A stretch of 46,778 nt of DNA. Source: Xylographa opegraphella. Taxonomy: Eukaryota. Below the pieces are notes generated by a model. The model worked only from the letters and a program-made list of their open reading frames with translations, did no database searches and was not told the DNA's origin. Below are positions 1-41,781 of this stretch, in pieces. The DNA is taken from contig JALDZX010000095.1 of the NCBI GenBank assembly GCA_022813865.1, positions 1 to 46,778 of the forward strand, written 5' to 3'. Both the position numbers and the translations under genes were made by a program. Each line of letters begins with the position of its first letter. Positions within the stretch are counted from its first letter, which is position 1.

Positions 1-58
1 GAGGCATCCGGATTATAGTTCCTCCAATCCCTGTTCCACACAGTACTGGTCAGAACCT
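1..58 (+). repeat. End of a short repeated element, copy 1 (truncated by the window edge)
   Basis: TGTTCCACACAGTACTGGTCAGAACCT at 32-58 is identical to 2211-2237; 1-31 aligns imperfectly with 2181-2210. Confidence 0.85.
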
Positions 59-261
59 TAACAAGTGAACAATAAAGTAACGAAAAAATAAAAAATTATT
101 TTAAACGATTTTCGAAAGCAAATAAACAAAATTATAAAATTAAAGAATTATAATACATTATAACCATAGTTTTAATCAAAGAATTCGTTTTATTTTCGAC
201 GTTAAACAAATTTAAAAACGACAATACATCGATTTTATAAAATATTTAAAAAAAATTATAA

Positions 262-447
262 TAGTTGAAATGAATGGGTGGAATCAGTATGGTGGAACCA
301 GTGCTTCATTGAACTATCGGTCAAGATGCGTAAGAAGGTTACTTTCTTCTTAAGGAAGAAAGCTCCCTTATATACGGCTACGCTAGTCTAGAAGCAGGTT
401 AGCGTCTATATTGCCTGCAGGCAATATAGAGGGCATTCTGCCAGACA
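262..447 (-). mobile_element. Putative solo LTR (about 186 bp)
   Basis: Balanced-GC island in the AT block. The minus strand begins TGTCTGG, has a TATATAAG box (plus 367-374) and ends TTTCAACTA, close to canonical ..TTCAACA. No TSD seen. Confidence 0.5.
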
Positions 448-2117
448 ACGCTATTTCCAACAATAATTAATAAAGTCGTGCGAATACGCCCGTTAAGGTG
501 AAAATATATTATATTAAATTTAGGCCGCCGCGTAATTTGTTTTAAATTTTTAAAGCGATATCTTTTCGAAATAACTAACAAAATTGATAAAAATTTTAAA
601 ATATAACGAATTTTATTGCTTTCGTATAAATATTTATATAAAATTAAAATTATTTTAAATAAAAATTTACTGTTAATCAGTAACTAAACGATTATAGAAA
701 ATAAAAAATAAAAAATATTAAATTGATTTAAAAACGAGATCTGTTTTTTCCATTACCTACGAAATAAATTAATATTTTAAAAAAATTTAAAAATTTATGA
801 TTATTATAAGTTTTTTGAATTCGAAATTAAAGAAATAATGCCCTTTAAAGCGCTATTTATAGTGATTTTACAGTAAATACGCCTCTTAAAATATATATAT
901 ATTTAAAATAAACGCCATTATTTATTTAAGTAAATCTTTTATTTATTAATAATAAAATCGAAACGGTTTTTACTACTTTTTTATTAATAATAGCGTTATT
1001 ATTAACCTTTGCAAACTGCTTAATAACTTACGAAATTAAAGCTCTTAATAATGGCGTTAAACTATCGCGGCGAAAATTTTTTTAACAATACGTCGCGCGA
1101 TTATTTTTATACGAAAGGCGCGCAGCTTAAAAATACTCGGAATAATAATATTATTATTTATATAAATACGTATTAAAGCTCGAGTTTTACGTTAAAAATT
1201 AAAAAAAAAAATTATTACCGTAATTGTTATTTCAACGGCAGGGCCAGAAAGGGTATATAAAGAATTCACTTAATTATTAACTATTTAAATCTTTCAAATT
1301 TAAACTTATATACGATAAAAATACATACTCGTATAATATTTATATAAATAATTATCGTATATTTCGCCGTCGATTTCTATTCGCTGTAACTAATTACGAA
1401 AAATAAAATTTAAACTTTATACAATTACTATTTTTATATAATAAAAATAAAAAATTATTTAAAAACGTTCGTAGGCCTGCGTTTTATGAGTTAAAAGTAT
1501 TTAAAAAATTATGTAAACGAATAGCGCCTGCGTTTTCTAAAACAAAATAATATTAAAATCCCCAGTCCTTCATCGATTTTTAATAATAATAATATATAAA
1601 CCTCGAAATTAATATTGAATTAATATAAAACCTATTATTAAGCGAAAAACGAGCCAAAAATTAAATTATATTAATAAAAAATTATCGTAAAATTATTTTT
1701 ATTTTTAAAAAATTAATCAACATTAATAATTTTATCGTTAAAATAAATTATAAAATTAATTTGTACGACGTTAGTTAAGAAATATTATTAAAACGAAAAT
1801 ATTTATTAATTACGATAATCGTAATAAGGTCGAATATAATAATATAATAAAAAAAAGTTGATAATTATTCAAAATTTAATTATTACGATTCTGCATTTAA
1901 CTGATACAGCTTGATCAAGAATTTGAATTGAATTCGTCAATAAATTAATAAAAGGCAAAGTAGCAGATTTATTATTTTTATAAGAATAATAGTTTTCGTA
2001 CAAGATTATATTAAAGTTTTTTATTTTATAAATTAAATTATAATATAAGTTAAACACGCTTTTTACAACAAAGGAATTCTTTACTTTATATAAAAATTCT
2101 GTTTTGTAATGTTTTTT

Positions 2118-3648: not shown

Positions 3649-5080
3649 TCATGACAGGAAGCGCCGCATAGCTGGTGGTGGAAGCGTTGGTGTACCGAGT
3701 TTGGCCCACTTATCATCCTTCTCCGGAAGGGCAGGTGGAAGGCCATCATCATCGGCCCATTCAACATCCCTTTTCACGGGAGATTTTCTGGGAACCGCAT
3801 CTGACATCTCAGGCTCCTCGAATGGACTTAGCGGCCAGTTCTTCTCCCTCCTGAATTGGCTGCCTAACGTGAGCCGTTCAGGGGAGCCGTTCACAGACGT
3901 GACTATGCTCCCGGATCGGGGATGATGGGCTGGTGAATCGGTCGACCGTATCATACCTTGACTCTCCCCAATGAAACTTTGTTTCTTGCTACCTGTCCAC
4001 GTAATAGGAAAAGAATATGAGCCGATCTTACGATCCAGGAGGAGCTTGATTAGGCACCAGGTGGATGGGAGACATGCACAGCAGACAAAAATGTGCATCT
4101 CCACGGTTGACCAGAGAGCTGGATCGCTCAAACCCCCTACACCGTCAGTACCAATATACATCATCTCAGGTGACAAGGCGACATACAAGTAAAGTCAAGA
4201 TTATCCTGGATCTGGATAAGTCGGACCAGTCGAATGATGGAGCAAATGGTAACGAACCCTCCTAGCAAAAACACTGCAGATAGACCCCATTTCTGTGACC
4301 TTGTAACCTTGAGCTTCCAAACTACAGGTAATGGCAGGATGAGTAGTATAATATCCGTAATGATCGAGGGAATTGCTTGAGCGAAGTAGAACTTGAGACT
4401 ACAATGCGACTAAGCTTAGCATATGACATGGAGCGATAGTATAGAGCATACGGATCTATACAAGTACTTGGTATCTCTAAATCCCAGAAGCCTTGGATCG
4501 GATGGCACGAGAAAATGGCCGTGAAGAGCTTTCGTAGCAATTGTCAGCGCACAGAAGACCTGCACATTCCACAATGGACGTACTGATGCCACGGTAGTGA
4601 TTGTGACAATTGCGGCCGTGATTGACAGCGGAAGTTTAAAAGTCGGAACGTGGAAGACGCGAAACAGGAACGCCAGAATGGAGAATTTGATGAATGCTAG
4701 GCCGATGCTGTAACAAATGGCGAAAATATAAAGTGCAAGCAGGAAGCTTCGGACATTTCCAAGGTCGGCAAGCTTTAGATGTGTGCCCAGGTTGTTGTGC
4801 AAAACACCATATATAGTGTTGGCCGCAGTCGCCCAAGTAAACGGCTACGATGATATATCAGAACGAATCTTCTCCGGAGGGTTCAGGATATAGGTACCAG
4901 TGCTGCAACCAGAAGAAAGTCATCTGCCAGGATTGGTGTCCTGGAAACCCAGCGAGCCACGAATCGGAGGAACACTGCAATACAGGACAAAGCAACCATC
5001 GCAGCGGAGACATTGACCAAGAGAGGGCCTTTGTCCGCGTCAGGATCATCGATTGGTCCATCGAGGCCGTCAAACAACAT
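3649..5080 (-). CDS. PTH11-like integral membrane protein (fungal rhodopsin domain, no CFEM)
   Basis: The spliced product shows typical motifs: AVFLRFVAR...ILADDFLLVAA, FIKFSILAFLFRVF, IFSCHPIQGFWD, IITDILLILPLPVVWKL, SIIRL, WSTVEMHIFVCCACLPS. About 4 GT-AG introns; ATG at 5080, TGA at 3651-3649. Confidence 0.9.
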
Positions 5081-5487: not shown

Positions 5488-7787
5488 GCTCAGCCCTAGT
5501 CCTACCCTAGGACGATTTTGGACTTAGGCAGTTGGTCCGGCCTGTCATCGGCTTTCGTGCTTAAATATGGCGCCTTTTACGGAGTATCTATCTGAGTATC
5601 TCGGGTTTCTACATACCGGCAGAAGCAAGGAGGAAAGGAGGAAGGAGGAGGAGGAGAAACGATCGTCGATGACCTGCTGCATCGCCAGCGACACGGTTCT
5701 CGAGCAAGCTCCCCAAACTGCAGAGATACGGAAGCCTGACGATCATGTGCTGCACTCTCAGCCCATAACTGGTTGGCTCGATTGGCACAGCCTCCACAGA
5801 GAGGTCGTACTGTACAATCCACAAAGGAATGGATCATCATTGCAGCAAGCATCTCAACAGCACAATGGACGCACACTTCCTCATTCCAGAGTACCTTTGC
5901 CGCGCGCTCGCTTGCTGATACAGCATTCGTCGGGCGTGCGGCAGCAATTCGTCATGTACTACGTATATCCCTGCGAAGCACGTCTGATTGTTAGCCTGTG
6001 CTTGATAGTAGTCGCAATGAATATGCTGCTATGATGAAGGAATGCCGCGATTGCAGGGATCCGAGAGGTCGGTAGGAACGTGTACGCGGACAGTGCAATC
6101 CCAGTGTGTTAGGGGAATAAAAAACTACCTTCGAAACGTACGGCATGGATATATCTCAATATGCTTTCAATTCCCTTCTTTTGCCTTAATTGTTGGAGTA
6201 AGCGGAAGAAACTTATCGGCGAATGCGGCCTAACGCTGAACTTTGCTGAACAGGTTGCAAAGTTGAGAACTGCGTTTGAGAAGTTGAGATCGGTGGACGA
6301 CGGATTGATCATCAGTACTTCTGTACTTTGTAGCGTGCGGCTTTCTCCGCTTTTAATTATTTAAGCATTCGCACTCCTAGGACCAGCCTCTCGGAGCGAA
6401 TGCGGAATTGTTGTTGTGAATTCAGATTACGGGATTGGGGAATCGTTCCAGAATAACGAAAACCCCGAGAGCGACCGGGATAAGGGAAATACTGTCATTG
6501 GCTATACCGGTGTTGCCTTTTCTCACTAGCCCAGACTTTGTGTCAGGTGGGTCCACGGCTTCTGATGTACATACGATGCTACCGAGCTGTGAAGATGTTG
6601 GAGAAGATAATCGCCACCAGTACTAAGCCATACTGATATCAATCTGATTGTTTAACGACCGGCTTTTTACCCCCACCTGAATGACTGTATGATACATCAT
6701 CTTCAGGTTCTTTCCAGAGACACCAACTCCACCAGTTTCAAATTCGATCCGATGACCTTGACGACGGAAAGCTCCAGTGAGCCTCTCGGAATTCGACTAC
6801 GCCAACACAAGGCTCCGCTGACGCTCAACCCGGGCCTTGCCTCTCCCTTGCATACGCAACCATAACCCTCACCTTGCCTTGTCCTTCCAGACGACGCAGA
6901 CCTGATTGCAGTTCCTGGCTCAATTCCGCTACCACGTCTTATTTTCCATCAGCCTACAAACAAGTAAGGCAACGAAGCCTTTCGCGTATCGAACGTACTT
7001 TCTCGAATACGATTCCACCAATGGAGAGAATTCAGTGTATCGGACACAATGGGGTGAAGCATGTGGTAAAGGCAGGGGGGTTTTATGGTGCAGCAGAGGA
7101 CGACGTGTGTGGATGGCTGATCAGAAAGTCTTACTAAAGAAGCGAGGACTGTGCGGGTTGCGCAGAGGGAGGCATCAGCGACAGGTAAGGCACGGAAGCC
7201 GAATGCTAGGCGGGAAGATGTTGGAGCTTGGTTGACAGGATTTGCCTGGAGAAGGCGTAATTCGCGATTACGGACGATTAAACCGGATTTACAAATAGTC
7301 GATCCTGTATGTAACATTAACTGGTGTCATGTGAAGATATCGTCCTGTCAATTCCTCGAGGCATCGTGAATGCGCTCATCAGTCTTGTCGTCTGGGTTCC
7401 AAAACCTCTCGCCCTGTTGCTGTGATTCAACCTTATCATATTAGCCTGTCGAGTGAGCATCACCCTCGTGCTTTCATTCTCATCCTCAACGACCCCATCC
7501 TCATACCTTCCTTTATTATCCAGCCTATCATCAATTCCACTCTGTCCTGTTTCTAGTGAAGTCCTTGAACAACATCCTTGAATTGCTCTTCCTCTTATTC
7601 AATTTTTTTTTAGATCATGTAGCGACGCTGTACGATAAAATTACGATTTGAGGCATGGGTTCAGCTGATGGTCCAGCACCGTTAGGTGTCACTATGGGAC
7701 GGCGCAGTAGCTTTATATACAGGAATCCATATCCTCCCATGCTGTCCTTGTATCCATCGGTCGACTTCCATAGTAGCCAAGTGGAGT

Positions 7788-8613
7788 CTAAGCCCAATGA
7801 TAATGAGCTTCAGAGGAGCTCTCGCCGAAAGATGGCTCGGGTTCCGCATCCGCATAGGCACTGGCATATGCCTCGGCGTAGGCATCCGCATAGGCCTCTG
7901 CCAACGCTTCGGCTTCAGCCTTGGGAGCAGCATCACGGGTATACAGCTCGCTCTCGTCAAAGTCTAGGAACTCTGGCTCGGCGTGTCGCGCATACAGATC
8001 TCGGAGATGCATTTTGTGAAAGGTGGCTTCTGCCTCGTGTGCAACACTATGGGCTGTGTGTCCAATTTTGGCGGCGACAGCGTCTACTTGCTTATTTTCA
8101 GCAAGATGATTGTATCCTGGCGGCCATATTAGCACACCATACGCTTACGGATGGAGGATTTATCGCGTCCACAGAACCTACCATCCGCGAGAACGTGGCC
8201 CAGGACAGGACCCGCTACCTTCCCGGCTGCGCCAGGTATGAATACCGCAGCTCCTGCAATGGCAGCCGCACTAATAGCTGGGTCTATAACGGTTAGGCTT
8301 ATTTGAAGTAGGTTAATGCTGCTGTTAACATACCCATCACATCATTCTGAACTTCTGTAGAGGTGAGAGCCCGTGGGATATTGAGCGTGCGCGTAGGGTA
8401 CAAGTCTCGGAGAGCTAATTCGCGCTCAAACATTCTGCGGTCCATCAGTTCTTGCTCGTAGAGACCGCGTTCGATCAGTTTCCGGGCGACAACGTCACGC
8501 CTTTGCAGTTCTCGCTCAAACAGATTCCTGTCCCTTTGGTTGGGATCAGCGTAGGCCGCTACAGCCGCAGCTACAGAGAGGACAGAAATGAGGAGTGTAC
8601 AAAAAGAAGGCAT
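7788..8613 (-). CDS. Secreted 236-aa precursor with LxxR (Kex2-type) motifs and X-Ala/X-Pro dipeptide repeats
   Basis: Exons 8613-8334, 8283-8182 and 8116-7788 join in frame through introns GTATGT..CTAAC..TAG and GTAGGT..CTAAT..CAG. N-terminal signal peptide MPSFCTLLISVLSVAAAVAAYA. Confidence 0.85.
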
Positions 8614-17516: not shown

Positions 17517-18614
17517 TCAACACGACGGCAGCACCTTGAACGTGATCGGCACACACCCCGGCGTCTGGTCGGACGAAAAGATGACCCCTCCGCCCGCATC
17601 GACGAGGCCCATGCAAATCTCAAACAGCGTCTGGGTCCCGTCGACGCACTGAAGGGTGCTCGCGGGCGTGACGCTGCAGGTGGCGGGCGCGTAGCCGAAG
17701 GCGGCAATGTCGGCTTGGGTGTTGAAGTAGAGCAGGAAGGCGTCGGGGCCGGCGTCGGAGTTGGCGATGTAGCCGTTGGCGGAGAGGGCGCCGGCGGTGG
17801 AGAGGTCGAGGACGGTGGCGGCGGAGGGGTCGGCGACGAAGTAGATGACGTCGTCGTCGGCGCCGTCGCCCGAATCGGCGACCTGGGCGTAGAGGCCGTC
17901 GATGGCGAAGCCGTTGGTGTCGTCGCCGCCTCCGACGGCTTGCAGCGTGAAGCTGCTGCACTGGGCGGGAGCGGTGGTGGTCGCGGTTGCGGAGGCATCA
18001 GGGACGACGGAGGTGTAGGTGATGGTCACGGTGGTGGAGGGCGCAGGGACGGTGGTTTGCGCGGCGGTGACGCCGATGCAGGAGCACGCGCTCGAGTAGC
18101 CGGCGGCGCCGGAGCAGGCGGATGCGTAGGTCGGGATGCTGGAGGGTTCGACAGTCACCTGGCGGGGTTCGATCGAAGCGGAGGGGTGCCGGACCAGAGC
18201 GGCGGCATCGTAACGCTTCTTCAGAGGGGCGGCCGTGCTGGGCGGGGGCGGAACGGCGGCGGTGGGGGAGTCAGCAGCGGGCATGGTCGTTGTGACAAAG
18301 GCCGTGGCCGTGGCCGTGATCGTGCTGGAGCCGTTGCCATTAGCAAGAGTGGTAGTCATGCGGGGAATCTCGATGCCTACGTAGTCGCTGGTGTGACGGT
18401 GGTCATGAAGTACGAGGAGCAATCAGCGGTGCCATGTCTGGATGGGAAGGCGGTGGCCCGAACCGCTCGTAGGCCTGCTCATTGTGAGTTGAAATTTTCC
18501 CACGCACGGGGTCGAGACATGGGGCCTACAGTTGTTCGCGTTGCACGCGGTCGACGTCGGCGCTGCAGCAGCTCCCACTGCTATGAGTGCCAGGGTGAAG
18601 AATGTCGACAGCAT
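17517..18614 (-). CDS. Secreted Ser/Thr-rich cell-surface protein with CNANNCLRAV and YASACSGxxxYSSACSC motifs
   Basis: Signal peptide MLSTFFTLALIAVGAAA; exons 18614-18530, 18474-18381 and 18324-17517 join in frame. Thr-rich linkers, a KKR site, and an acidic Cys-containing C-terminal domain. Confidence 0.88.
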
Positions 18615-20866
18615 GGTGGATGAGGAGCCGAGTCAGGAAGGTTGGAGGTGGGAGTGCTCGGTGTACACTTGACAGTCCTGGAGTCCGGGTAGGCCTCTGG
18701 GCAGCGTGCGTCCTTTATATCGCCCATAGCTGGGAATGGTTGACGGCTACTTTTCTGCCGACTAGCTCATAGCAAGAGGCCTAAAGCGTACCGACCTTAG
18801 CAGTAATAATAGAAAGGCAAGGTCGCATGGCCCTGAACTTGGAAGGTTCCTCTGCATTTAGTGGCATCGAAGTAGCGTAGGACAGGGCCGGGTTCGACCC
18901 GAGTCCAGGGCTCTGACACATCATACATGCGGGTCAACGAAGGGCATCATCTCTTTCGCCGTCGATGCTTCGGCCCAGATCCACGACGGTGGGCATGAGC
19001 AATAATTGGGGCCCATCATGCTGGTGGTGCCGGCAGTTGTAGGTAAGTAGATCCGTGTCGCTCGGATCGAGGGAGATAAGATTCGGTTCAATAGGTAATG
19101 ACGGTAATTCGGGCTTGGGTTGAAGCCCCTTTTATGCCCAGTACTGGTAGACTAACCTAAGGTGGCTTAAGGTAAGGTACTTCGTATTTCCCTACCGACC
19201 TTACTGTGGTAGCTCCGAGTTACACAGTAGTACCACAGTACTTTGAGGTATGCTGCCTGAATACCTTATCCCAGACATCGGGTATGGCACGACAGGGGGC
19301 TCTCGCTTGGCATTCCGAATGAGGCACAACGCTTTCTTGGCTGCATCATGCTGCTACGCATCCGTACTGTACCTATTTTAAGGTACCCTACAGTACGGCA
19401 CTCTGTGGTCGAGGCAGCATCGCGTTTAGGTACGGTTGCTAATCTGATCAGTGCCTTACCTCAAGGTACAACTCCGAATGGTGCATAAAGCGATCCAGCG
19501 CGAAGACATCCCAAAGACCGGCCTCCCATCCCCTGTCGGCTTCCCACGAGACCGGCAGACGGGGAGACTGGCTAGTAGCTACCCAAACGTTCACCGGCCT
19601 CCCCCTGCTGCCACCTTAACGTCGTGCGCCTACCCGAGTCCTCGCCTAGAGCCGACCGGCGAGCTGACGCGGCACGAGCTTGGTGGGCCTTAGAGTTCGA
19701 ATAGCCTTCAGATCTGGGACAGGTTCGGGAATAAACGTGCAATCGCGCTGGAGATAGAGTTCCGGGAGGAGCGATGTGCAGTATGCAATTGGCTGCGTCA
19801 CGAGATATTCATTCTGATTCGTTAGGTCTACGTACCTTGGACAGACAAGTCCTCGATCGTCGGTATTGAAGTCTCCATTACCAGCAGGCTGAGCTGTACT
19901 TCGGCCATCGTGGGCTCAAAGGCACTTGGCCATGACCGGGAGAATGCAAGTACCGATATGAATATCTATCTCCCCCACCTGCAACGCAAGGCTCCCCTCA
20001 TCCAACTCGGCCGAGGATAGCTTCGTAAGCGACCTTCCAGTCCCTGCTCGTGATGTATGGGCTTCTGGAGCGAGCGGAAGAGACTGTAGGCCATCATGTG
20101 TACAGCAGGCGTCGTGTGGAAATCAGGGACGCACTCGAGAACCGAGAAGACCCATTCGCATCTGCCGCCCGCGAGACATGTCGATTGGGCCGCTTCCACG
20201 CCGTACGAACTCACTACCAAGGCAACCATAGTTGGAAGCTCTGCACATGCAGCGGCAGCAATGAAGTGTCTCGGAAGTCGGACGAATTTCCAATCAAGTA
20301 GCTTGTCGTCATGCGCCTTGGTGAATTCAGACCACACTCGCCTCCCTCAGCACCGATATTACAATATGGTCCAGTTTCCGGCCGCTCACTACACCCGACC
20401 ATGCATACAAGGACGCTCGATCAGAAGCCGGCTTTTAGACAGGCCAACTGTCAACTCAGGACAACAAACGAGCAGTAGCATGGGACGAAATCGATGGAAC
20501 GGTCTACGTGCAGCTTTCTTACCAAGGTCGGAAAGAGATAGGAAGTGAAGCGGAGCTTAACTGAATCTCTACCCAGATGAGAGACTCGTCACAGGAGTCA
20601 TTGCTAATGGTTGACTTTGGTTGCGGTAGATTTGACATCATTACCATTACAACCGGTTGCCTATGTTATCAAGTAGCATCACTCATATCTGCCAACCTGT
20701 TTTGCTGCCTTCTACATATTATGCACAAGTAAACCAATAACGAGTAGACGATATTGCACACAAATTCGGACCGAGTAGCAAACCGAGACGGATAGGCGAG
20801 AGAGGGGAGCGGGTCTATAAAGAGAGACTGAACAGTGTAACGTTAGATCAAGCTCCTCGTTTGAGG

Positions 20867-32044: not shown

Positions 32045-32630
32045 CCGCGGACCACCACTTATCTACCGAAGCTTTCTTACGGTGTACCTATTACCTCAAG
32101 GTCTCGTTCCAGATTGCGGGGCGGTAGATCTGGTCTTCCGTGGCCCTCGGATTCCCCGACCCACCCAGTCCAAGCGAACTTTGTGCCCTCGTCTCCGTTG
32201 GAACTGTTTTCCGTCATTCTCGTTTTGCTCCCTCTTCTTCTCATTGGACCATCTCTCCCTGCTCGTACTAAGTACTTGTTATCTCTCAGGCCTCGCTCGC
32301 CCCCAGTTCTGTTGCCTCCCTTATCATACCCCAGATTTGTGGCACCCGCGGTGACGGCTATGCATAACGTCAGTGCAGGCCTTCCGCGGATCTGGCCTTA
32401 GTTCCTGATGCGCTCGTCGACATTGGCAATTCGGAGCGATCTGACATGCGTGTGCAAGCATGCTGGTCGTGCTACCCAGGCCCCAGGATTTCTCCTCTGG
32501 GCTGCCATCCTTGTGCTGTCCCATGTGAACCATCCCGGATAGCAATATCTCCATGCTACATGTAGCAAGTTTGGCTGTGTGACTTGACTGTTCGGCCCTG
32601 CTCTCACCTCGTCGCTTCTCACTTCTATCA
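32045..32630. promoter_or_regulatory. niaD upstream region with GATA (AreA/NIT2) and NirA/NIT4-type sites
   Basis: TCCGCGGA at 32383-32390, CCGCGGAC at 32045 and TTCCGTGG at 32136. HGATAR sites on the minus strand at 32059, 32279, 32321 and 32625. Confidence 0.6.
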
Positions 32631-32660
32631 TTCACTGCTCGCCAGAAGTTGCCCGACGTT

Positions 32661-35494
32661 ATGGAAGACCCAACCACGCAAGACAACCATTCCCAAAGAA
32701 TATGGGAGAAGCATGAACATCTTCCACATACACGCCCGGAAGAACTGCCTCCTTCGCCGCCAGAGACCGCAGACAATGTGTCGGATCGCGACTCGTCGGT
32801 CGAAAACGACATTCCCCTTCCACCTCCGAGTTATGAACCGACGGAAGTCCTTGCAGTCGACAGAAATACCCCAGACTTTCATGTTCCTCGAGATCCGCGG
32901 TTGATACGGTTGACTGGCGTCCATCCCTTCAATGTCGAAGCACCGCTCACGACTTTGTTCGACCAAGGTTTCCTAACCCCTCCAGAGCTTTTCTACGTCC
33001 GGAACCATGGGCCCGTCCCTCAAGTTCACGAAGACGATATCCCAAACTGGGAGTTCAGCGTTGAAGGGTGCGTGCAATGATTGGAAGGATTGCTTTCTAC
33101 GTCCTTCGGCTCTAACAGACGATCTGCAGGCTCATAGACAATCCTATAACTCTCACTCTACGTCAACTCATTGGCGAGTATCAACAGATAACATGCCCCG
33201 TCACTCTCGTTTGCGCGGGCAATCGGCGAAAGGAGCAAAATCAAGTGCGCAAAAGTAAAGGGTTCTCTTGGGGAGCGGCGGGGGTATCCACAGCTCTCTT
33301 TACCGGCGCTCTGATGTCAGATGTCATCAAGAAAGCACGACCAAGAAGGGGCGCAAGATTCGTCTGTATGGAAGGTGGAGATGAACTTGTGTGTAGTCGT
33401 CGCGCCAGAGTTAATCACCAAGAAGGGAATTGTGCTAACACCTACTATAGCCAAATGGCCGTTATGCAACATCTATCAAGCTGAATTGGGTGATGGATCC
33501 TAATCGAGGCGTGATGTTGGCGCATAAAATGAATGGTGAAGTTTTGAGACCAGATCATGGCAAGCCGTTGCGCGCAGTAATCCCGGGACAGATTGGAGCC
33601 CGAAGTGTGAAATGGTTGAAGAAACTCATAGTCACAGAAGGTCCCAGCGACAATTGGTACCATATATACGATAATCGGGTCTTGCCAACAATGATAAGTC
33701 CTGAAGAGTCTGCCAACAATCCCAAGTGGTGGGTTGACGAGAGATATGCGATCTATGACCTCAGTCCTAACTCTGCAGTGGTATATCCAGCTCACGAGGA
33801 ACAAGTGTGTCTTGTAAATGGGCCGGAGAAATATCGAGCCAAAGGCTATGCATATGCTGGAGGTGGCAGGCGGATCACTAGAGTTGAGATATCCCTAGAT
33901 CAAGGCCGAACCTGGCGTCTGGCGGATATTGATTATCCCGAAGACCGGTACCGTGATGTTGAGAAGAATCTTTTCGGAGGGCGTCTGGATATGCAATGGA
34001 GAGAAACTTGTTTTGCTTGGTGTTTTTGGTCGTTTGATGTACCCGTCTCGGAACTTGAGGGAGCGAAAGATCTGCTCGTCCGAGCTATGGATGAGGCCAT
34101 GAATATTCAACCTCGCGATATGTATTGGAGTGTTTTGGGTATGATGAATAATCCTTGGTTTCGGGTGGTGATCAGTAAAGAAGCAGATTTCTTGAGATTC
34201 GAGCACCCTACCCAGCCGGCGCTTATGCCCGGAGGGTGGATGGAAAGAGTGAAAAGGGCTGGTGGAAACCTGGCCAACGGATATTGGGGGGAAAAGATAG
34301 GAGGTGAGGAGTCAGAGGAGGCGGTGACAGTAGAGGCCAAGGAAGTACCCATGAGGAAGGAAGGTGTGGATAGGATCATCACCATCGATGAGCTCAGGAA
34401 ACATGATGGTGATAAAGATCCTTGGTTTGTGGTTAACGGAGAGGTTTACGACGGCTCTACGTTCCTGAAGGAACATCCCGGTGGTGCCCAAAGTATCATC
34501 AGTGCGGCAGGCTTGGACAGCAGCGACGAGTTCATGGCTATTCGTATGCTTTGCCATGCGCTCCTTTTTCGATTGTTATTGAACTAACAATTTTGCAGAC
34601 TCTGAGACCGCCAAAGGGATGATGCCTGGCTACCACATTGGAACTCTCGATGAAGCGTCGAAGGTAGTCTTGAGTGAGGGCAATGTTTCCGATGAGAAGT
34701 CGAACGAGAAAAGGGCCACATTCCTTCGGAGCAAGTCGTGGACAAATGCGGTTCTATGTGGAAAGCGGATCGTTTCTTGGGACACCCGTGTATTCACTTT
34801 TCAATTGGAGCACGCAGAGCAAAGTCTGGGTCTTCCCGTCGGTCAGCACCTGATGATCCGGCTTCGTGACCCAGTTACCAAAGAAGCCATCATTCGATCT
34901 TATACGCCAATATCTAATACAACGCAGAAGGGATTCTTGGACGTCCTAGTGAAAGTCTACTTCGCTACAAATTCTACCAAGGGTGGCAAGATGAGCACTG
35001 CCATGGATGCATTACCTATTGGTCATGGGGTCGACTTCAAAGGCCCAATCGGCAAGTTTGAATATCTGGGTCGCGGAGGTTGCAAAATCAATGCAAGGAA
35101 GACGACCGTGAAGCGTTTTGTCATGATCTGCGGTGGCAGTGGAGTCACACCCATATTCCAGGTGTTCCGAGCGATCATGCAAGACAAAGACGACCGCACC
35201 CGATGCATTGTTTTGAACGGCAATCGATTGGTGGAAGATATCTTGTGTAAAGAGGACTTGGATGCGCTGGTGGAGGAAGGCGGGGACCGAGGGAAGGTGA
35301 TATACACGCTCACGAAAGCGCCAGATGAGTGGAAGGGCTTGAGAGGCAGAATCAACGGCGCGTTAGTACAGCACCACTGCGAACGGGACGAAGAGACGCT
35401 TGTGCTTATATGTGGGCCGGAAGCATTGGAAAAGAGTGTACACGTTGCGCTGCTCGAGCAGGGCTGGAAAGACGAACAGCTCGTGTTCTTCTAA
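32661..35494 (+). CDS. niaD: Assimilatory NAD(P)H nitrate reductase
   Basis: Moco domain (RLTGVHPFNVEAP, LFYVRNHGPVP, TLVCAGNRRKEQN, GFSWGAAG, DHGKPLR, GMMNNPWFRV), cytochrome b5 (FLKEHPGGAQSI) and FAD/NADH domain (LGLPVGQH, IRSYTPIS, GGSGVTP, LICGP); 3 introns. Start codon tentative. Confidence 0.97.
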
Positions 35495-35614
35495 AGATTG
35501 GGCAATTCAAGGGGCGTTTCGGGTGATGTGCACTCTTGCTGTGGAATGAATCAAGCAGCGGGAGCATGGCGAACGAAGTCATGTCATTCGGGAATCAGCA
35601 TCAGGGGTGGAGCA

Positions 35615-36210
35615 CCGCGGATTGCCTTCTAGTGCATCGAGCTCCTCAAAGCATATCTCATTTTTTAAGTATAGTGTGGTGCAGCATAGTTCTGAGCCGA
35701 TTATGGTTGAGGACTGGTATCGTTTCAGCATTGATATCAATACACGGACTCTTAGGATATCCTACGGAGTACCGTGTTTGGAGCGACAAGGGAGTGGCGC
35801 CAGTGCTCTTCGTGCCGGACTTTATCTCCGCTCGGGGCGGACGCTTATCGTTATCAGGGACAACCTCGTAGCCACGGAGAAGGAAAAACAGCCTTAACTT
35901 CATCATCACTCTCTAGCCCTCACCCAGACATCTGCGCGGGGCATCAGTGGCAATGATCTTGCCGATCGGCCTGCTAAGAGTGGAGAAGCAGCTTGGTGGC
36001 TTGCTTCCCTCCACTACCTTTTTAGGGGTCTGCGAGGTCTAGTCTGGATGGTGTATTTCGATGCTCTTAGCAGTGGCCAATTCGTTCTTGAGATCTGTAT
36101 CTACCGGTACTTGCGTAGCTTCAATACATCGTCTTTCTGTGTAATTATGCTGGTGCCGCTTCTCCCTATGTATCCAGTCTTTTCTGCCTGATAAGTCACT
36201 GCTTATCCTG
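35615..36210. promoter_or_regulatory. niiA upstream region with GATA and NirA sites
   Basis: CCACGGAG at 35872-35879 is CTCCGTGG on the minus strand, matching the NirA consensus CTCCGHGG; CCGCGGA at 35615. GATA sites at 35822, 35845, 35851 and 36189. Confidence 0.6.
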
Positions 36211-36290
36211 ATATGCAAGTCTGCAGCCTTGCTCGGTAGGTAAGACGCTATTCGGATTACTCGACTGTTCCTCCATATACTCCATTTGCG

Positions 36291-39200
36291 ATGTCTTCGT
36301 GGGCAGACTCATCGCCAGGGATGCAGATGGAGCGTGTGCCGGTAAACGGACACGATCCTGAAGAAGATGGTGGACAATATCCCAAGCCGCCTTTACAGCG
36401 GAAGAAGATCGTCGTGGTCGGACTTGGGATGGTAGGTATAGCATTCATGTAAGTAATGCCACGACAGGCCCGTTACAGAGACCGCCCGAGCTTCGCTGAT
36501 AATATGGCTCGCTTCAGAGAAAAGTTACTCAAGATGGACTCGAAAAGGCGCGAGTATGACATCGTTGTCATAGGAGAGGAATCGCATCTTGCATACAATC
36601 GAGTGGGCTTGACGAGCTTCTTCCAGCATCGCAAAGTGGAGAACTTATACTTGAATCCTCAGGATTGGGTGAGCTCTCCTCCCACTCGTGAAACTTGAGG
36701 AGCTCGATCTGATAGCTATTGATTTTTTCTAGTATACAAATACTCCGGCAGGCGCCCTGAACTACCATCTCAATACCATGGTAACGGAAATACATACCCA
36801 GGAGAAACTCGTGTCAACCTCGAATGGTGACACCGTCCCTTATGATATGCTTGTTCTTGCAACCGGGTCCGATGCCCTTCTTCCTCGCCATACTCCTGGC
36901 CATGATGCGAAGGGGGTCTTTGTGTACCGCACAATCGGGGACTTACAGAAATTAATTGATTATGCCGCTACAGTCAAAGAGACCACCGGCGCAGTGGTAG
37001 GTGGAGGATTACTGGGTTTGGAGGCTGCAAAGGCAATGATGGATCTCGAAACTTTCAACCAGGTCAAACTGATCGAGAGAAATAGATGGGTATTGAGCAG
37101 ACAACTTGATGCGGAAGCCGGAGGGATGGTCGTAGATTTGGTTCGACAGCTCGGCTTGGATATCTTACTCAGCAAAAGGGTCGGGAAGATAGAAGTTGAC
37201 GAGAACAATACGGTCAAGGGTGTCGTCTTCGAAGATGGTGAACGCATGGACTGTACTTGCATTATGTTCGCGATCGGCATTAGGGCGAGGGACGAGTTAG
37301 CCAGGAAGGCTGGCATCAAATGTGCAGACCGCGGCGGCGGAATTGTGATTGATGGAGATCTCATGACCAGTCAGAAGGACATATACGCGATAGGAGAATG
37401 TGCAAGTTGGGAGAGCGAAACTTTCGGACTGATCGCACCTGGCATCGAGATGGCTGAGGTTTTGGCTTTCAACTTGACTCAAGCCAAAGTGCATGCTCCA
37501 AGGAAATTTAAGAGACCTGACCTGAGCACAAAGTTAAAGTTGCTTGGTGTCGAGGTAGCAAGTTTTGGAGACTTTTTTGCTGATAGAGATGGACCAAAAT
37601 CTCTACCAGTCAGAAGTCATGCCGCAAAGAAGCAGGCTAACGGTACGCCCGGTGCTCAAGACCAGGTGAAGATCATCACTAATGGACCGGCTCCCCCACC
37701 AGTTAAGGCGCTCACTTACAAGGATCCTTTTAATTCTGTGTACAAAAAATACCTGTTCACGGTTGACGGTAAGTACCTCCTCGGCGGCATGATGATCGGA
37801 GACACAAAAGATTACGTCAAACTGGTTCCGATGGTCAAGAACCAGAAGCCTCTGGAAATTCCGCCCAGCGAATTCATTCTTGGAGCCGCGAAAGAAGGCG
37901 AAGAGGGCGGGGATGACTTGACCGACGATACACAGATTTGCTCCTGCCACAATGTCACAAAAGGAGACGTAGCGACAGTGGTCAAAAATGGAACTTGCAA
38001 AAGCATAGGAGAAGTCAAGTCATGTACCAAGGCTGGAACAGGATGTGGAGGTTGCATGCCTTTGGTGCAATCGATCTTCAATACTCAAATGAAGGCTATG
38101 GGTAACGAAGTGTCGAACCATCTCTGCCCACATTTCGCACATTCTCGAGCAGATCTTTTCAATATCATATCCGTCAAGAAGATTGAGGACTTTCCGTCCA
38201 TTATGAAGGAAGCAGGAAAAGATGCCCAATCGTTGGGATGCGAAGTTTGCAAGCCTACGATTGCCTCTATCTTAGCTTCTCTCTATAATAAGCACATTAT
38301 GGACAAATCTCTCAACGGACTCCAAGAAACAAACGACAAATTCCTGGCAAATATCCAAAGGAACGGAACCTTTTCCGTCATACCGAGAGTATCCGCAGGT
38401 GAAATAACTCCGGATAAGCTAATCGCCATGGGTACAGTAGCTAAGAAATACAATCTTTATTGCAAGATTACCGGCGGTCAGCGTATTGATTTATTCGGTG
38501 CCAAAAAGCAGGACCTGCCTGATATATGGACGGAGCTCATCGCTGCAGGACTAGAGTCTGGCCACGGTTATGCCAAGTCTCTCCGAACAGTAAAATCCTG
38601 TGTTGGCACGACCTGGTGCCGCTTTGGTATCGGCGATAGTGTTGGCATGGCTGTCCGTCTCGAAGAGCGCTACAAATCTATCCGCTCTCCTCACAAGATC
38701 AAGGGAGGTGTCTCCGGGTGCGTGCGGGAGTGCGCCGAAGCGCAGAACAAGGACTTTGGTCTTATAGCAACCGAGAAAGGCTTCAACGTCTTCGTCGCTG
38801 GAAACGGAGGCAGTAAACCTCGCCACTCAGAGTTGCTTGCTAAAGACGTACCTCCGGATGACGTGGTCCCCATCCTCGATCGCTATCTCATGTTCTACAT
38901 CCGTACGGCCGATAAACTCCAACGTACTGCCCGCTGGATGGAGAACCTCCCAGGAGGCATCAACTATCTCAGGCAAGTCATCCTCGAGGACAAGCTTGGC
39001 ATCTGCGCCTCGCTCGAAGAGCAAATGAATGCCCTCGTCGGCACCTTCTTCTGCGAATGGACCGCCGTACTCAACGATCCGAAGCTCCGTGCCAACTTCA
39101 CCCAATTCGCCAACACAACTGCCACGCTCCCCGTCATGGAGAATGTCGAAGACCGCGGGCAGACCCGACCGGCCTATTGGCCGCACGGTAAAGTGACCCA

Positions 39201-39876
39201 AGATTTCCGCGGCACGAAGTGGACCTCGCTCGCCTGGCAGCCGATGCTGGAGACTTCTTACTTCGCCGACAAAGTCGACCTCCCCAACGGCGCCTCCGCT
39301 GCCCTCAAGCGCGGTGACACTATGCTCGCCCTCTTCTACCTCAAAGGTAGGTACTACGCTACCCAGCAGATGTGCCCGCACAAGCGCGCCTTCGTCCTCG
39401 CCGACGGCCTGATCGGCGACACGCCCACCGCCGCCGTCCCGCTCTCCGACCGCAAAGCTGGCGCTGCTGCCGGCACTTCGACCGGCGGGTCGGACCCTGG
39501 CCCGGATACTTCGAGCCTCTACGTCAGCTGTCCGAATCACAAGCGTAACTTTACGCTCAACGGTTCGGATGCGGGTAAGTGCTCCAACGACGCGGACGTG
39601 AGTATCGCGACGTTTGCGGTCGAAGAGCGGGAGGATGGATGGATCTATGTGAAGCTGCCGCCGGTGGAGGAGCTGGACGCGGTGCTAGGGACGAAGAAGT
39701 GGATGACAAAGGCGAGCGAGACGGAGGATCCGTTCAAGAAGCTGGATGCGAAGCTGAAAGGGACTAGAAGTAAGAAGGTGTTGGGTGGGGCTGGAGAAAT
39801 GGGAAGGCGGGTCGGTGGGTTCGAGGTCAAGGTGGGAGGAGAGCGGGGCGGGGGCGGGGGCGGGATCGATTGGTAA
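36291..39876 (+). CDS. niiA: Assimilatory NAD(P)H nitrite reductase (FAD, BFD-like 2Fe-2S, siroheme/4Fe-4S and Rieske-like domains)
   Basis: [42 protein letters not shown]...[52 protein letters not shown]; 2 introns near the 5' end. Confidence 0.97.
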
Positions 39877-41781
39877 AGGAGGAGTAGCTGGGTTTGGGGG
39901 TTATGAAGGATGTATCATAGACAGATAGATTACATCGCATTGTTGAAATTGCTCTTGAATCGCCACAAGTTCTCGTCTCAAGAATTCGACTTGGGCGCCA
40001 GTGGTCGAAAGTCTCTCAGTGGTGCCTAGTAGCAACATGACATTGCTAAACCCCAACTCCCATACCTAGTCCATGGTTGAATTTCGCGTCAGGGTTTCCT
40101 ATCCAGCTGTTGGCTGTAGCCCAGGAAGAATATGTGGCATCCAGTACCGTACCCGATACATGTGCTGGTCAGGATTAAGTAGTCCACCAACGAATACCCG
40201 CACTAGCCAGAAACCTGCCGTTGGACTGCCCGTTTACATATCCACTCAGATGTAGGTGCGAGCGCTCCTCGTAGCGATATTTGTAGCGAGATTTTGGTGA
40301 GTATACGTGCATATCATTCACCACTACACATACTTTTTAAAACAGAGGTTCATTCACAGACGTGATTCCGGAAGTTCGGCAGCTGCCATGAGTATGCTGC
40401 CGGGGAATCTCGAGGTCGATGAGTAGATCCGTTGTTGATCGGGAGATCGAGAGACTGCGAAGTGCGATATTGTCTCTGTAGTAAAAAGATTTGGACTTAT
40501 TGCCACTTCTACAATTGCCTCCAACAACGATCGATTGTAAACTATGCTAGTCGCAATCCGCACTGGTGCGACGACTTGTGCTGTTCCTTGAGTATTGGTT
40601 AGCCTAAAGCAAAGCCGATAAGTTGCAGGTATACATGACACAAGTAATAATGATAGCTCCAATGTTCCCGTAGCACTGAACAAGCTCAGATCAATGAATC
40701 GCAGGCCGATATCTCCAAATCCCTCGGGCGACGGCGGGGGCGACCGATCATGACGTTACAGTTGTTCTTCTAATTAAATTACTCCAAGAGCATAACTTTC
40801 TTGCTGGCAGTCTTGGACTGTACCTCGAATGTTCTTCTAAGAACGGAGTACCAATTGATGCTGCAAAAACACGACCACAGAAAAGGACAGGGTGCTCCGA
40901 GTAGGGATGTGTGCTAGCATCAGGCTGAGATGTTGCATTCCACAGGTTTGCTGCGCCATACCTATATGACCTTGTAATTGTAAGCAGTGCTATAGTCAAC
41001 TGTTCTGCTATATGCCTGCATAAAGTGCGCCGAAGACGATCTATCGTACTGAACGACTGTCACAAGGCATTTCCGACACTGTGAAAGGCCCAGTGAGAAT
41101 CATATGCCCACAACAGCCATCGCAGCTTATCTCCTCATTTCACGGGCGGAGTACCACTAATAGTAGTGCACAGTATCGACGATACCTCTTCCGAAGTCGA
41201 CGCAGTAAGGTAGTTTCCATGCTGACGGCATGCCAGTGTACAAGAATTCCAAGATTGAAGGGTGAAAATTACTCGATCACATGTAGGGCCTCACACATCT
41301 GCTGCAGTAGTAGAGGACTTGTATCCTCGCACGAGGGCTGAGTAATACATTACGCGGCTGTATATTCATAGCTTCACACAAACATTGCACTCGCGCTGCC
41401 GAGCTCCTCATCATTAATAGCCAATGAAAACAACGATACATAGAAATTGTATAAAACCCAAAATGTTTTTTTATGTGGGATGGCTTCAAGGAAGGACCCG
41501 ACAAACTAAGCCGTTCCGCCTGATGGTGGCTATCAACAGTGCAAAGAGCGGCACACATACGGACCGTACGGGACCTCAAAATAGTTTTAGGAGCTTTTGA
41601 TAGATCCTCCGTAAGGCTGAGTTAAGCGCGATATTTATGAATGCTAAGCGCGAAGCTCTTTTACGTATGGCGCCGTAGAAGTACAGACGATTCCTATGAT
41701 AATCCTCAGTCGTCATCTATTATCTAGAATTTTATTGATCGCTCTCCTCAGACCCAAGTACCAGATTCCCGAGGTCTCAAG

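What the first reader, a model, noticed from the sequence alone, without database searches (positions are those of the whole stretch)
7788..8613. Multi-product secreted peptide precursor with pheromone/melittin-type processing architecture
Seen: the spliced 236-aa protein has a signal peptide, a pro-region of repeated LxxR-type motifs (LFER, LQRR, LIER, LMDR, MFER, LALR), an 85-aa core free of Cys and of internal Arg, further LYAR and LYTR sites, a long dipeptide run and a 14-aa tail. The ORF track shows it only as two separate fragments. Known: Kex2 cleaves after KR/RR and LxxR motifs in fungal pro-domains, and Ste13-type dipeptidyl aminopeptidases trim X-Ala/X-Pro units, as in alpha-factor and promelittin. 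Inference: an uncharacterised ribosomal peptide or effector system releasing one or more bioactive peptides. No tailoring enzymes (e.g. DUF3328/UstYa) are adjacent, so the products would be linear.
Basis: partly seen in the sequence, partly recalled or inferred. Interest (0 to 1): 0.78.

Follow-up and report, generated by a model that had tools for sequence, protein, structure and literature searches.

The report
Lichen secreted proprotein with orphan core
A lichen fungus gene encodes a secreted protein that is probably cut into pieces on its way out of the cell to free one small, water-repelling helical protein of unknown job, using a kind of throw-away packaging that several other genes of the same fungus also use.

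Summary
Three minus-strand exons with two canonical introns give 236 aa, identical to an unnamed database protein of the lichen fungus Xylographa opegraphella. The xxxR motifs and the 17-dipeptide run far exceed chance.

The pheromone/melittin reading is only partly right. The tail behind the dipeptide run is the least conserved region (29-43% identity in 3 orthologues). In all three it ends in another xxxR site (FEAR) that this gene has lost. Conservation peaks in the core's hydrophobic hairpin and in TLNIPR just before it.

The likely product is one 85-97 aa helical, His-rich, Cys-free core cut out by Kex2 from acidic spacer arrays on both sides. At least 7 other genes of the genome use the same spacers around unrelated cores. 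Kex2-type and Ste13/DapB-type genes are present; no UstYa gene lies on the contig.

The core has no significant match in Pfam, PDB or the ESM Atlas; its named orthologues are all Xylographaceae. Membrane or surface activity is my best guess and is not shown. Verdict: a variant of known Kex2-processed fungal proproteins with an orphan cargo, of moderate interest.

The parts
8334..8613 (-). exon 1: signal peptide, N-terminal xxxR array, start of core
8548..8613 (-). signal peptide, residues 1 to about 20-22 (cleavage point not computed)
   Evidence: hydropathy; 13 of 22 columns invariant in 4 sequences
8389..8547 (-). N-terminal pro-array, residues 23-75: roughly 5-residue units ending in xxxR (LFER, LQRR, VVAR, LIER, LMDR, MFER, LALR, YPTR)
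8371..8388 (-). TLNIPR, residues 76-81: invariant, either the last spacer or the start of the mature product
   Evidence: 6 of 6 invariant in 4 sequences; distant relative P0010 has a similar stretch right behind a KR site
8284..8333 (-). intron 1, 50 nt, phase 1
   Evidence: unspliced gene calls P0007 and P0008 leave the alignment at this point
8182..8283 (-). exon 2: residues 94-128, hydrophobic Ala/Gly-rich helix, FIPG turn, second helix; with TLNIPR the most conserved part
8117..8181 (-). intron 2, 65 nt, phase 1
   Evidence: P0009 and P0010 leave the alignment at this point
7788..8116 (-). exon 3: rest of core, C-terminal spacer array, tail, stop
8001..8370 (-). predicted released core, residues 82-166 (spans both introns): 85 aa, 7 His, 20 Ala, 7 Gly, no Cys, net charge -3 without His
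7935..8000 (-). C-terminal spacer, residues 167-188, with LYAR and LYTR sites
7833..7934 (-). run of 17 X-Ala/X-Pro dipeptides, residues 189-222, acidic
   Evidence: 0 of 20,000 shuffles
7791..7832 (-). 14-aa tail, residues 223-236: least conserved region; orthologues end FEAR-YF(R/S)A

Best explanation
A secreted pre-pro-protein of a lichen fungus that delivers one main product. (1) The signal peptide takes it into the ER (inferred from hydropathy). (2) The charged arrays on both sides keep the hydrophobic core soluble in transit (inferred by analogy with Ece1 flanking peptides and K2PP pro-domains). (3) Kex2 in the late Golgi cuts after the many single-Arg xxxR sites (inferred from motifs and published specificity). 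This frees an 85-97 aa Cys-free helical core and breaks the arrays into short disposable pieces, which Ste13/DapB may trim further. (4) The core is a marginally hydrophobic helical hairpin with a [FW]IPG turn, followed by an amphipathic His-rich helix. It would turn from about -3 to about +4 if its His are protonated at acid pH. It most likely acts on a lipid or air-water interface: membrane-active against microbes or the photobiont (about 35% overall), or coating the hyphal surface like Rep1 repellents (about 25%). Shown: gene structure, motifs, conservation pattern, shared spacer vocabulary. Inferred: secretion, cleavage, product ends, activity.
For: Identity by region to 3 orthologues: core hairpin 97/92/61%, TLNIPR 100/100/100%, tail 43/36/29%. 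The distant relatives found outside the full-length set match either the exon-2 hairpin (P0009, P0010) or exon 1 and its array (P0007, P0008, P0011). The Ptychographa orthologue has an extra complete spacer unit in its tail. 7 of 22 other genomic loci examined carry a signal-like start plus 2 or more spacer units around unrelated cores; in 2 of these 7 (L012, L034) an acidic array ends 9-20 aa before the stop. In P0004, L016 and L018 the dipeptide run is itself closed by an xxxR site. Kex2-type (S8 plus P-domain) and DPPIV_N plus S9 genes are in the genome. Kex2 accepts LxxR, with P2 Thr, Pro, Glu or Ile (PMC8528282).
Against: No cleavage, secretion or activity data. No dibasic site flanks the core: the only RR/RK pairs are at 38, 44 and 59. 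P2 Leu/Ala at the C-terminal sites is not among the five P2 alternatives listed in PMC8528282. The last eight residues are conserved among the orthologues (FEARYFxA in 3 of 3; E230, A231, Y233, A236 invariant in all 4), so the very end is under some constraint. The N-terminal array is as conserved as the core among Xylographa (87-92%), more than a throw-away spacer needs. The hairpin's best 19-residue hydropathy is only 1.55. AlphaFold models are low confidence (pLDDT 40 and 46). The only family hint, microcin V, is not significant (E 0.097-0.29).
Confidence: 0.55

Rival explanations
1. One reading: Kex2 cuts at LYTR, Ste13 removes 17 dipeptides, and the C-terminal peptide (14-mer here; YF(R/S)A tetrapeptide in orthologues) is a pheromone- or hormone-like signal, beside the core.
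For: A perfect 17-dipeptide run in register behind an xxxR site. FEARYFxA is conserved out to the 51%-identical Ptychographa orthologue. A Ste13/DapB-type gene is present. Ste13 trimming of such runs is shown for fungal KEPs (PMC9769878). In paralogue L027 a dipeptide run leads straight into a core.
Against: The tail is the least conserved region. The products would differ wholly between sister species (14-mer versus 4-mer). There is a single copy, not repeats. Similar arrays end other precursors with no evident product behind them (L012, L034, P0005, P0006).
Confidence: 0.15
2. The protein is secreted largely uncut, or loses only its N-terminal array. The long helical, acidic Ala/Tyr-rich arrays are functional parts of a wall or surface matrix protein (LEA-like protection, metal or water binding).
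For: No dibasic site flanks the core. The N-array is 87-92% identical within Xylographa. AlphaFold draws the arrays as helices, at low confidence. C-terminal Arg sites are decaying in this species (2 lost relative to orthologues).
Against: 11 of 16 Arg sit in aliphatic-x-x-R, reached by 3 of 20,000 shuffles, while the core is nearly Arg-free in all 4 sequences. The same spacers flank unrelated cores.
Confidence: 0.17
3. The core is cut out as in the best explanation but works as a His-rich metal (Zn/Cu) chelator or a receptor ligand, not at a membrane or surface.
For: 7, 5, 7 and 6 His in the four cores. A fungal rhodopsin-domain membrane protein gene is the next gene downstream.
Against: Only H154 and H164 are invariant in 4 sequences, and the best conserved part is the hydrophobic hairpin. 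Synteny with the membrane protein gene could not be tested.
Confidence: 0.13

Closest known systems
K2PP (Kex2-processed pro-domain) fungal effectors; LxxR pro-sites of the AFP and BP antifungal protein families (PMC8528282; PMC13525654)
   Same: Signal peptide, N-terminal pro-region ending in LxxR-type sites, one mature product.
   Different: Here the pro-region is an array of about eight xxxR units, a second acidic array follows the core, the core has no Cys, and the host is a lichen fungus.
KEPs, KEX2-processed repeat proteins (PMC6339444, PMC7329392, PMC9769878)
   Same: Secreted precursor cut at many sites, X-Ala/X-Pro runs, linear untailored products, no DUF3328 neighbour.
   Different: KEPs are defined by repeated peptide cores between KR/RR/KK sites. 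Here the spacers repeat, the core is single, and most sites are single Arg.
Candida Ece1/candidalysin and Ustilago Rep1 (PMC12153327, PMC8528282)
   Same: Kex2 polyprotein logic; an amphipathic or hydrophobic helical product; flanking peptides that may aid folding and secretion.
   Different: Those use KR sites and give shorter products (candidalysin 31 aa). No sequence relation was tested or found, and no lytic or surface activity is shown here.
Ascomycete alpha-pheromone precursors (PMC6339444) and promelittin (recalled, no call)
   Same: Kex2-type site followed by X-Ala/X-Pro dipeptides.
   Different: There the dipeptides stand directly before the active peptide, which in pheromones is usually repeated. 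Here they follow the conserved core and precede the least conserved segment.

Membership tests
KEP | N-terminal signal peptide | tested here: met
   hydropathy 2.0 over residues 1-19; no SignalP run
KEP | repeated, near-identical peptide cores | tested here: not met
   single core; no tandem repeat at DNA level; only spacers recur
KEP | KR/RR/KK sites between the repeats | tested here: not met
   RR38, RK44 and RR59 only, all in the N-array
K2PP proprotein | KR/RR/LxxR site in the first half, after a pro-region | tested here: met
   seven aliphatic-x-x-R motifs, two with RR, in residues 31-69
K2PP proprotein | disordered pro-domain | tested here: inconclusive
   AlphaFold pLDDT 40 overall, drawn as helix
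K2PP proprotein | removal of the pro-domain by Kex2 | not testable with these tools
   a Kex2-type gene is present; cleavage needs an experiment
alpha-pheromone precursor | KR followed by X-Ala/X-Pro directly before a conserved, usually repeated short peptide | tested here: not met
   site is LYTR; tail single and 29-43% identical in orthologues; no Pfam family at E up to 1
dikaritin RiPP precursor | DUF3328/UstYa gene nearby | tested here: not met
   0 of 14 UstYa matches on this contig; none among 22 window frames scanned
Ece1/Rep1-like amphipathic peptide precursor | released amphipathic peptide acting on membranes or surfaces | not testable with these tools
   hydropathy and hydrophobic moment are compatible but moderate
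microcin V-like bacteriocin | Pfam PF17508 above its cut-off of 27 bits | tested here: not met
   12.2 bits, E 0.29, in an orthologue; E 0.097 for its core; no hit for the window's protein

The most novel reading that the evidence does not exclude
Lichen fungi use a common single-Arg, acidic-dipeptide packaging to secrete a large undescribed arsenal of unrelated Cys-free peptides. KR-based KEP surveys and structure-based secretome surveys would mostly miss them. This gene's core would be the first member of a pH-switched, membrane-inserting peptide family aimed at the photobiont or at thallus microbes.
Probability: 0.25. Interest if true: 0.75.

Novelty: new variant of a known kind. Interest (0 to 1): 0.45.

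Why it matters
How lichen fungi act on their algae and bacteria is open, and many of their secreted proteins have no annotation (205 of 608 in Xanthoria, bioRxiv 2024.08.16.608140, passages). If these spacers are cut as predicted, they give a simple rule to read mature products from lichen genomes, and an 85-91 aa peptide that can be made and tested without lichen genetics. The processing logic itself is known, and nothing here shows what the product does.

Tried and rejected
RNA runs: none was listed for the locus, so no reads were laid.
Metagenome DNA around relatives: 431 pattern matches, none confirmed; 0 matches to a two-motif pattern. Synteny and DNA-level selection could not be tested.
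Core paralogues in the genome: only the gene itself matched. No similarity to the repeats of L030 or P0004 (probability 0.2).
Deeper core homologues: the profile search of longer proteins returned only the 3 known ones among 8,000 scored candidates.
ESM Atlas: no usable hit for the whole protein or the core. PDB sequences: 7 matches, best E 0.29, none meaningful.
AlphaFold: pLDDT 40 and 46, too low for a fold search, which was not run. Self-association of the core was not modelled.
The antisense 213-aa frame (7655-8296, plus strand) is rejected as a shadow of this gene; it was not searched.
Literature: 8 searches showed no paper on this protein or on these spacers in lichens. (motif words) was swamped by unrelated words and is uninformative. 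Searches returned 0. Most subscription papers are not in the library, and supplementary KEP tables were not read.

Full report
1. The observation. The gene lies on the minus strand as three exons (8613-8334, 8283-8182, 8116-7788). The introns are 50 and 65 nt, each with a GT donor, a CTAAY branch site and a YAG acceptor. The spliced frame is 236 aa and equals database protein P0001, a hypothetical protein of Xylographa opegraphella, a lichen fungus of the family Xylographaceae. The exon borders have independent support. Unspliced gene calls of relatives leave the alignment exactly at them: P0007 and P0008 after exon 1, P0009 and P0010 after exon 2. P0002, from a JGI/IMG contig of at most 1,141 nt, runs across both intron positions. 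It is probably a spliced transcript; this is an inference, and that such gene callers do not splice is recalled.

Against 20,000 shuffles, the 17-dipeptide run was reached by 0, the 11 aliphatic-x-x-R motifs (of 16 Arg) by 3, and the 84-residue Arg-free stretch by 220. Two refinements are needed. The site opening the 85-aa core is NIPR, with YPTR before it, not LxxR. And 2 of 3 orthologues have one Arg inside the core.

2. Relatives. Three protein searches and one search of cluster representatives plus a cluster look-up gave three full-length orthologues: X. trunciseda (80%), an unnamed JGI protein (81%) and Ptychographa xylographoides, same family (51%). They also gave exon fragments and one distant unnamed group (P0010, 4 members) that shares the exon-2 hairpin and starts it behind a KR site. 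The other hits (P0004, P0005, P0006, P0011) share spacers only. There is no Pfam family (best is microcin V at E 0.097-0.29), no PDB relative and no Atlas hit. The core is single-copy in the genome as far as the searches see.

3. Where selection sits. Identity to the three orthologues by region: signal 59/64/64; N-array 92/87/51; TLNIPR 100/100/100; hairpin 94-131 97/92/61; C-helix 132-166 71/71/34; spacer 68/77/41; dipeptide run 82/88/59; tail 43/36/29. The tail is the most variable part. All three orthologues end FEAR-YF(R/S)A, so their run is closed by one more xxxR site. The Ptychographa tail holds an extra full spacer unit, and the window's gene has lost that closing Arg and one more. This fits a decaying spacer better than a mature peptide.

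Against my reading, the last eight residues are conserved among the orthologues, four of them in all four sequences, so a short terminal product cannot be excluded. The N-array is also as conserved as the core within Xylographa.

4. The spacers are a shared vocabulary. Three degenerate patterns gave 12, 5 and 12 matches in the genome against 2, 0 and 2 for the reversed controls. After removing self and duplicate loci, 22 loci were examined, two of them from protein searches. Seven have a signal-like start and two or more spacer units in one frame (crude signal test). Three more (L010, L018, L030) show arrays by eye. The other 12 showed nothing and are mostly chance. This is a lower bound.

Their cores are unrelated: 8-Cys (L011), Gly/Asn/Ser-rich (L012), Lys-rich with net +23 (L034), repeated amphipathic (L030). 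Six of these frames were scanned and none has a Pfam family. In L012 and L034 an acidic array (net -20 in the last 60 aa) ends 9 and 20 residues before the stop. In P0004, L016 and L018 the dipeptide run is closed by an xxxR site; in L027 it leads directly into a core. So the dipeptide run is a general module of this class and does not by itself mark a pheromone-like product.

5. Machinery and neighbourhood. The genome encodes a Kex2-type protease (S8 plus P-domain, L021) and a membrane-anchored DPPIV/S9 peptidase of Ste13/DapB type (L023); which of the two yeast paralogues it matches was not tested. None of 14 UstYa matches is on this contig. Neighbours are a fungal rhodopsin-domain membrane protein downstream and a v-SNARE upstream. 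Further on are a septin, TMEM33, a sulfate permease, an aspartyl protease, nitrate and nitrite reductases, a PSMD12-type subunit and NIPSNAP (22 frames scanned). This is not a biosynthetic cluster. The gene lies about 6 kb from an AT-rich contig end (GC 22-25%).

6. How it most likely works. Shown: gene structure, motifs and conservation. Inferred: ER entry; Kex2 cuts at single-Arg sites (LxxR and P2 Thr/Pro/Glu/Ile are accepted according to PMC8528282); release of one 85-97 aa core; breakdown of the arrays. The invariance of TLNIPR and the KR site before the matching stretch in P0010 favour a start at residue 76.

The core is predicted as three helices around a FIPG turn, at low confidence (pLDDT 46). 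Its first helix is hydrophobic (mean 1.39), its last is amphipathic, and it has 7 His at net -3. I rank action at a membrane (about 35%) above surface coating (about 25%), metal or receptor binding (13%), a tail signal peptide (15%) and an uncut matrix protein (17%); these are not all exclusive. The arrays may act as solubility or folding aids, as reported for Ece1 flanking peptides (PMC12153327) and suggested for K2PP pro-domains.

7. Comparison with what is known. It works like a K2PP proprotein or an Ece1/Rep1-type polyprotein. It fails the KEP definition (no repeated core, no dibasic sites around it), the alpha-pheromone definition and the dikaritin definition. LxxR pro-sites are known in the AFP and BP antifungal families (PMC13525654). 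Ste13 trimming in non-pheromone KEPs is shown (PMC9769878).

What I saw of the papers: PMC8528282, main text (parts 1-2 of 3); PMC6339444, PMC7329392, PMC9769878, PMC12048977, PMC13525654, PMC12153327 and three lichen preprints (10.1101/2024.08.16.608140, 10.64898/2026.09.03.749242, 10.64898/2026.06.16.732702), keyword passages only. The three preprints have 0 occurrences of Kex2 in the main text. Supplements were not read and could list such proteins. Promelittin is recalled. Eight searches showed no description of this protein or scaffold in lichens, within a library that lacks most subscription papers.

8. Verdict. It is a variant of known Kex2-processed fungal proproteins, with single-Arg spacer arrays on both sides of one orphan helical cargo, rather than a pheromone/melittin-type multi-product precursor. 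Interest 0.45: testable and in an under-explored group, but the processing logic is known and no function is shown.

Noticed in passing
L030:259-1818 (+), G000:C24: 520-aa frame with three near-identical amphipathic Gly-rich repeats, each closed by an xxxR site, plus a dipeptide run: a better Rep1/Ece1-like multi-product candidate than the given gene. No Pfam family.
   Followed up: partly
L012 and L027 (G000:C193, about 133-137 kb); L015 and L018 (G000:C231, about 266-274 kb): Spacer-bearing secreted genes occur in pairs, about 3 kb and 7 kb apart; the C193 pair lies at the contig end.
   Followed up: no
L034:1434-2645 (-), G000:C185: Secreted-looking 386-aa protein with a Lys-rich segment (net +23) and an acidic C-terminal array (net -20), suggesting charge neutralisation in transit. 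A UstYa match lies about 29 kb away on the same contig.
   Followed up: partly
L011:1269-1829 (-), G000:C181: Small secreted protein with spacer units followed by an 8-Cys segment, no Pfam family; a candidate antimicrobial or effector.
   Followed up: partly
window 3649-5080 (-): Fungal rhodopsin-domain membrane protein gene, the next gene downstream on the same strand; any link to the secreted core is untested.
   Followed up: partly
window 1-2000: AT-rich contig end (GC 22-25%), like a RIP-mutated repeat region.
   Followed up: no
window about 32600-39900 (+): Adjacent nitrate reductase and nitrite reductase genes, an ordinary nitrate assimilation cluster.
   Followed up: no
window 17517-18623: GC-rich stretch with long open frames on both strands; the minus frame (301 aa) is Thr/Ala/Pro-rich with several Cys, like a wall protein. 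No Pfam family.
   Followed up: no
P0004 (Xylographa soralifera record): 232-aa precursor with two near-identical Gly/Ala-rich cores, each behind a dipeptide run closed by LEAR: same packaging, repeated unrelated cargo.
   Followed up: partly
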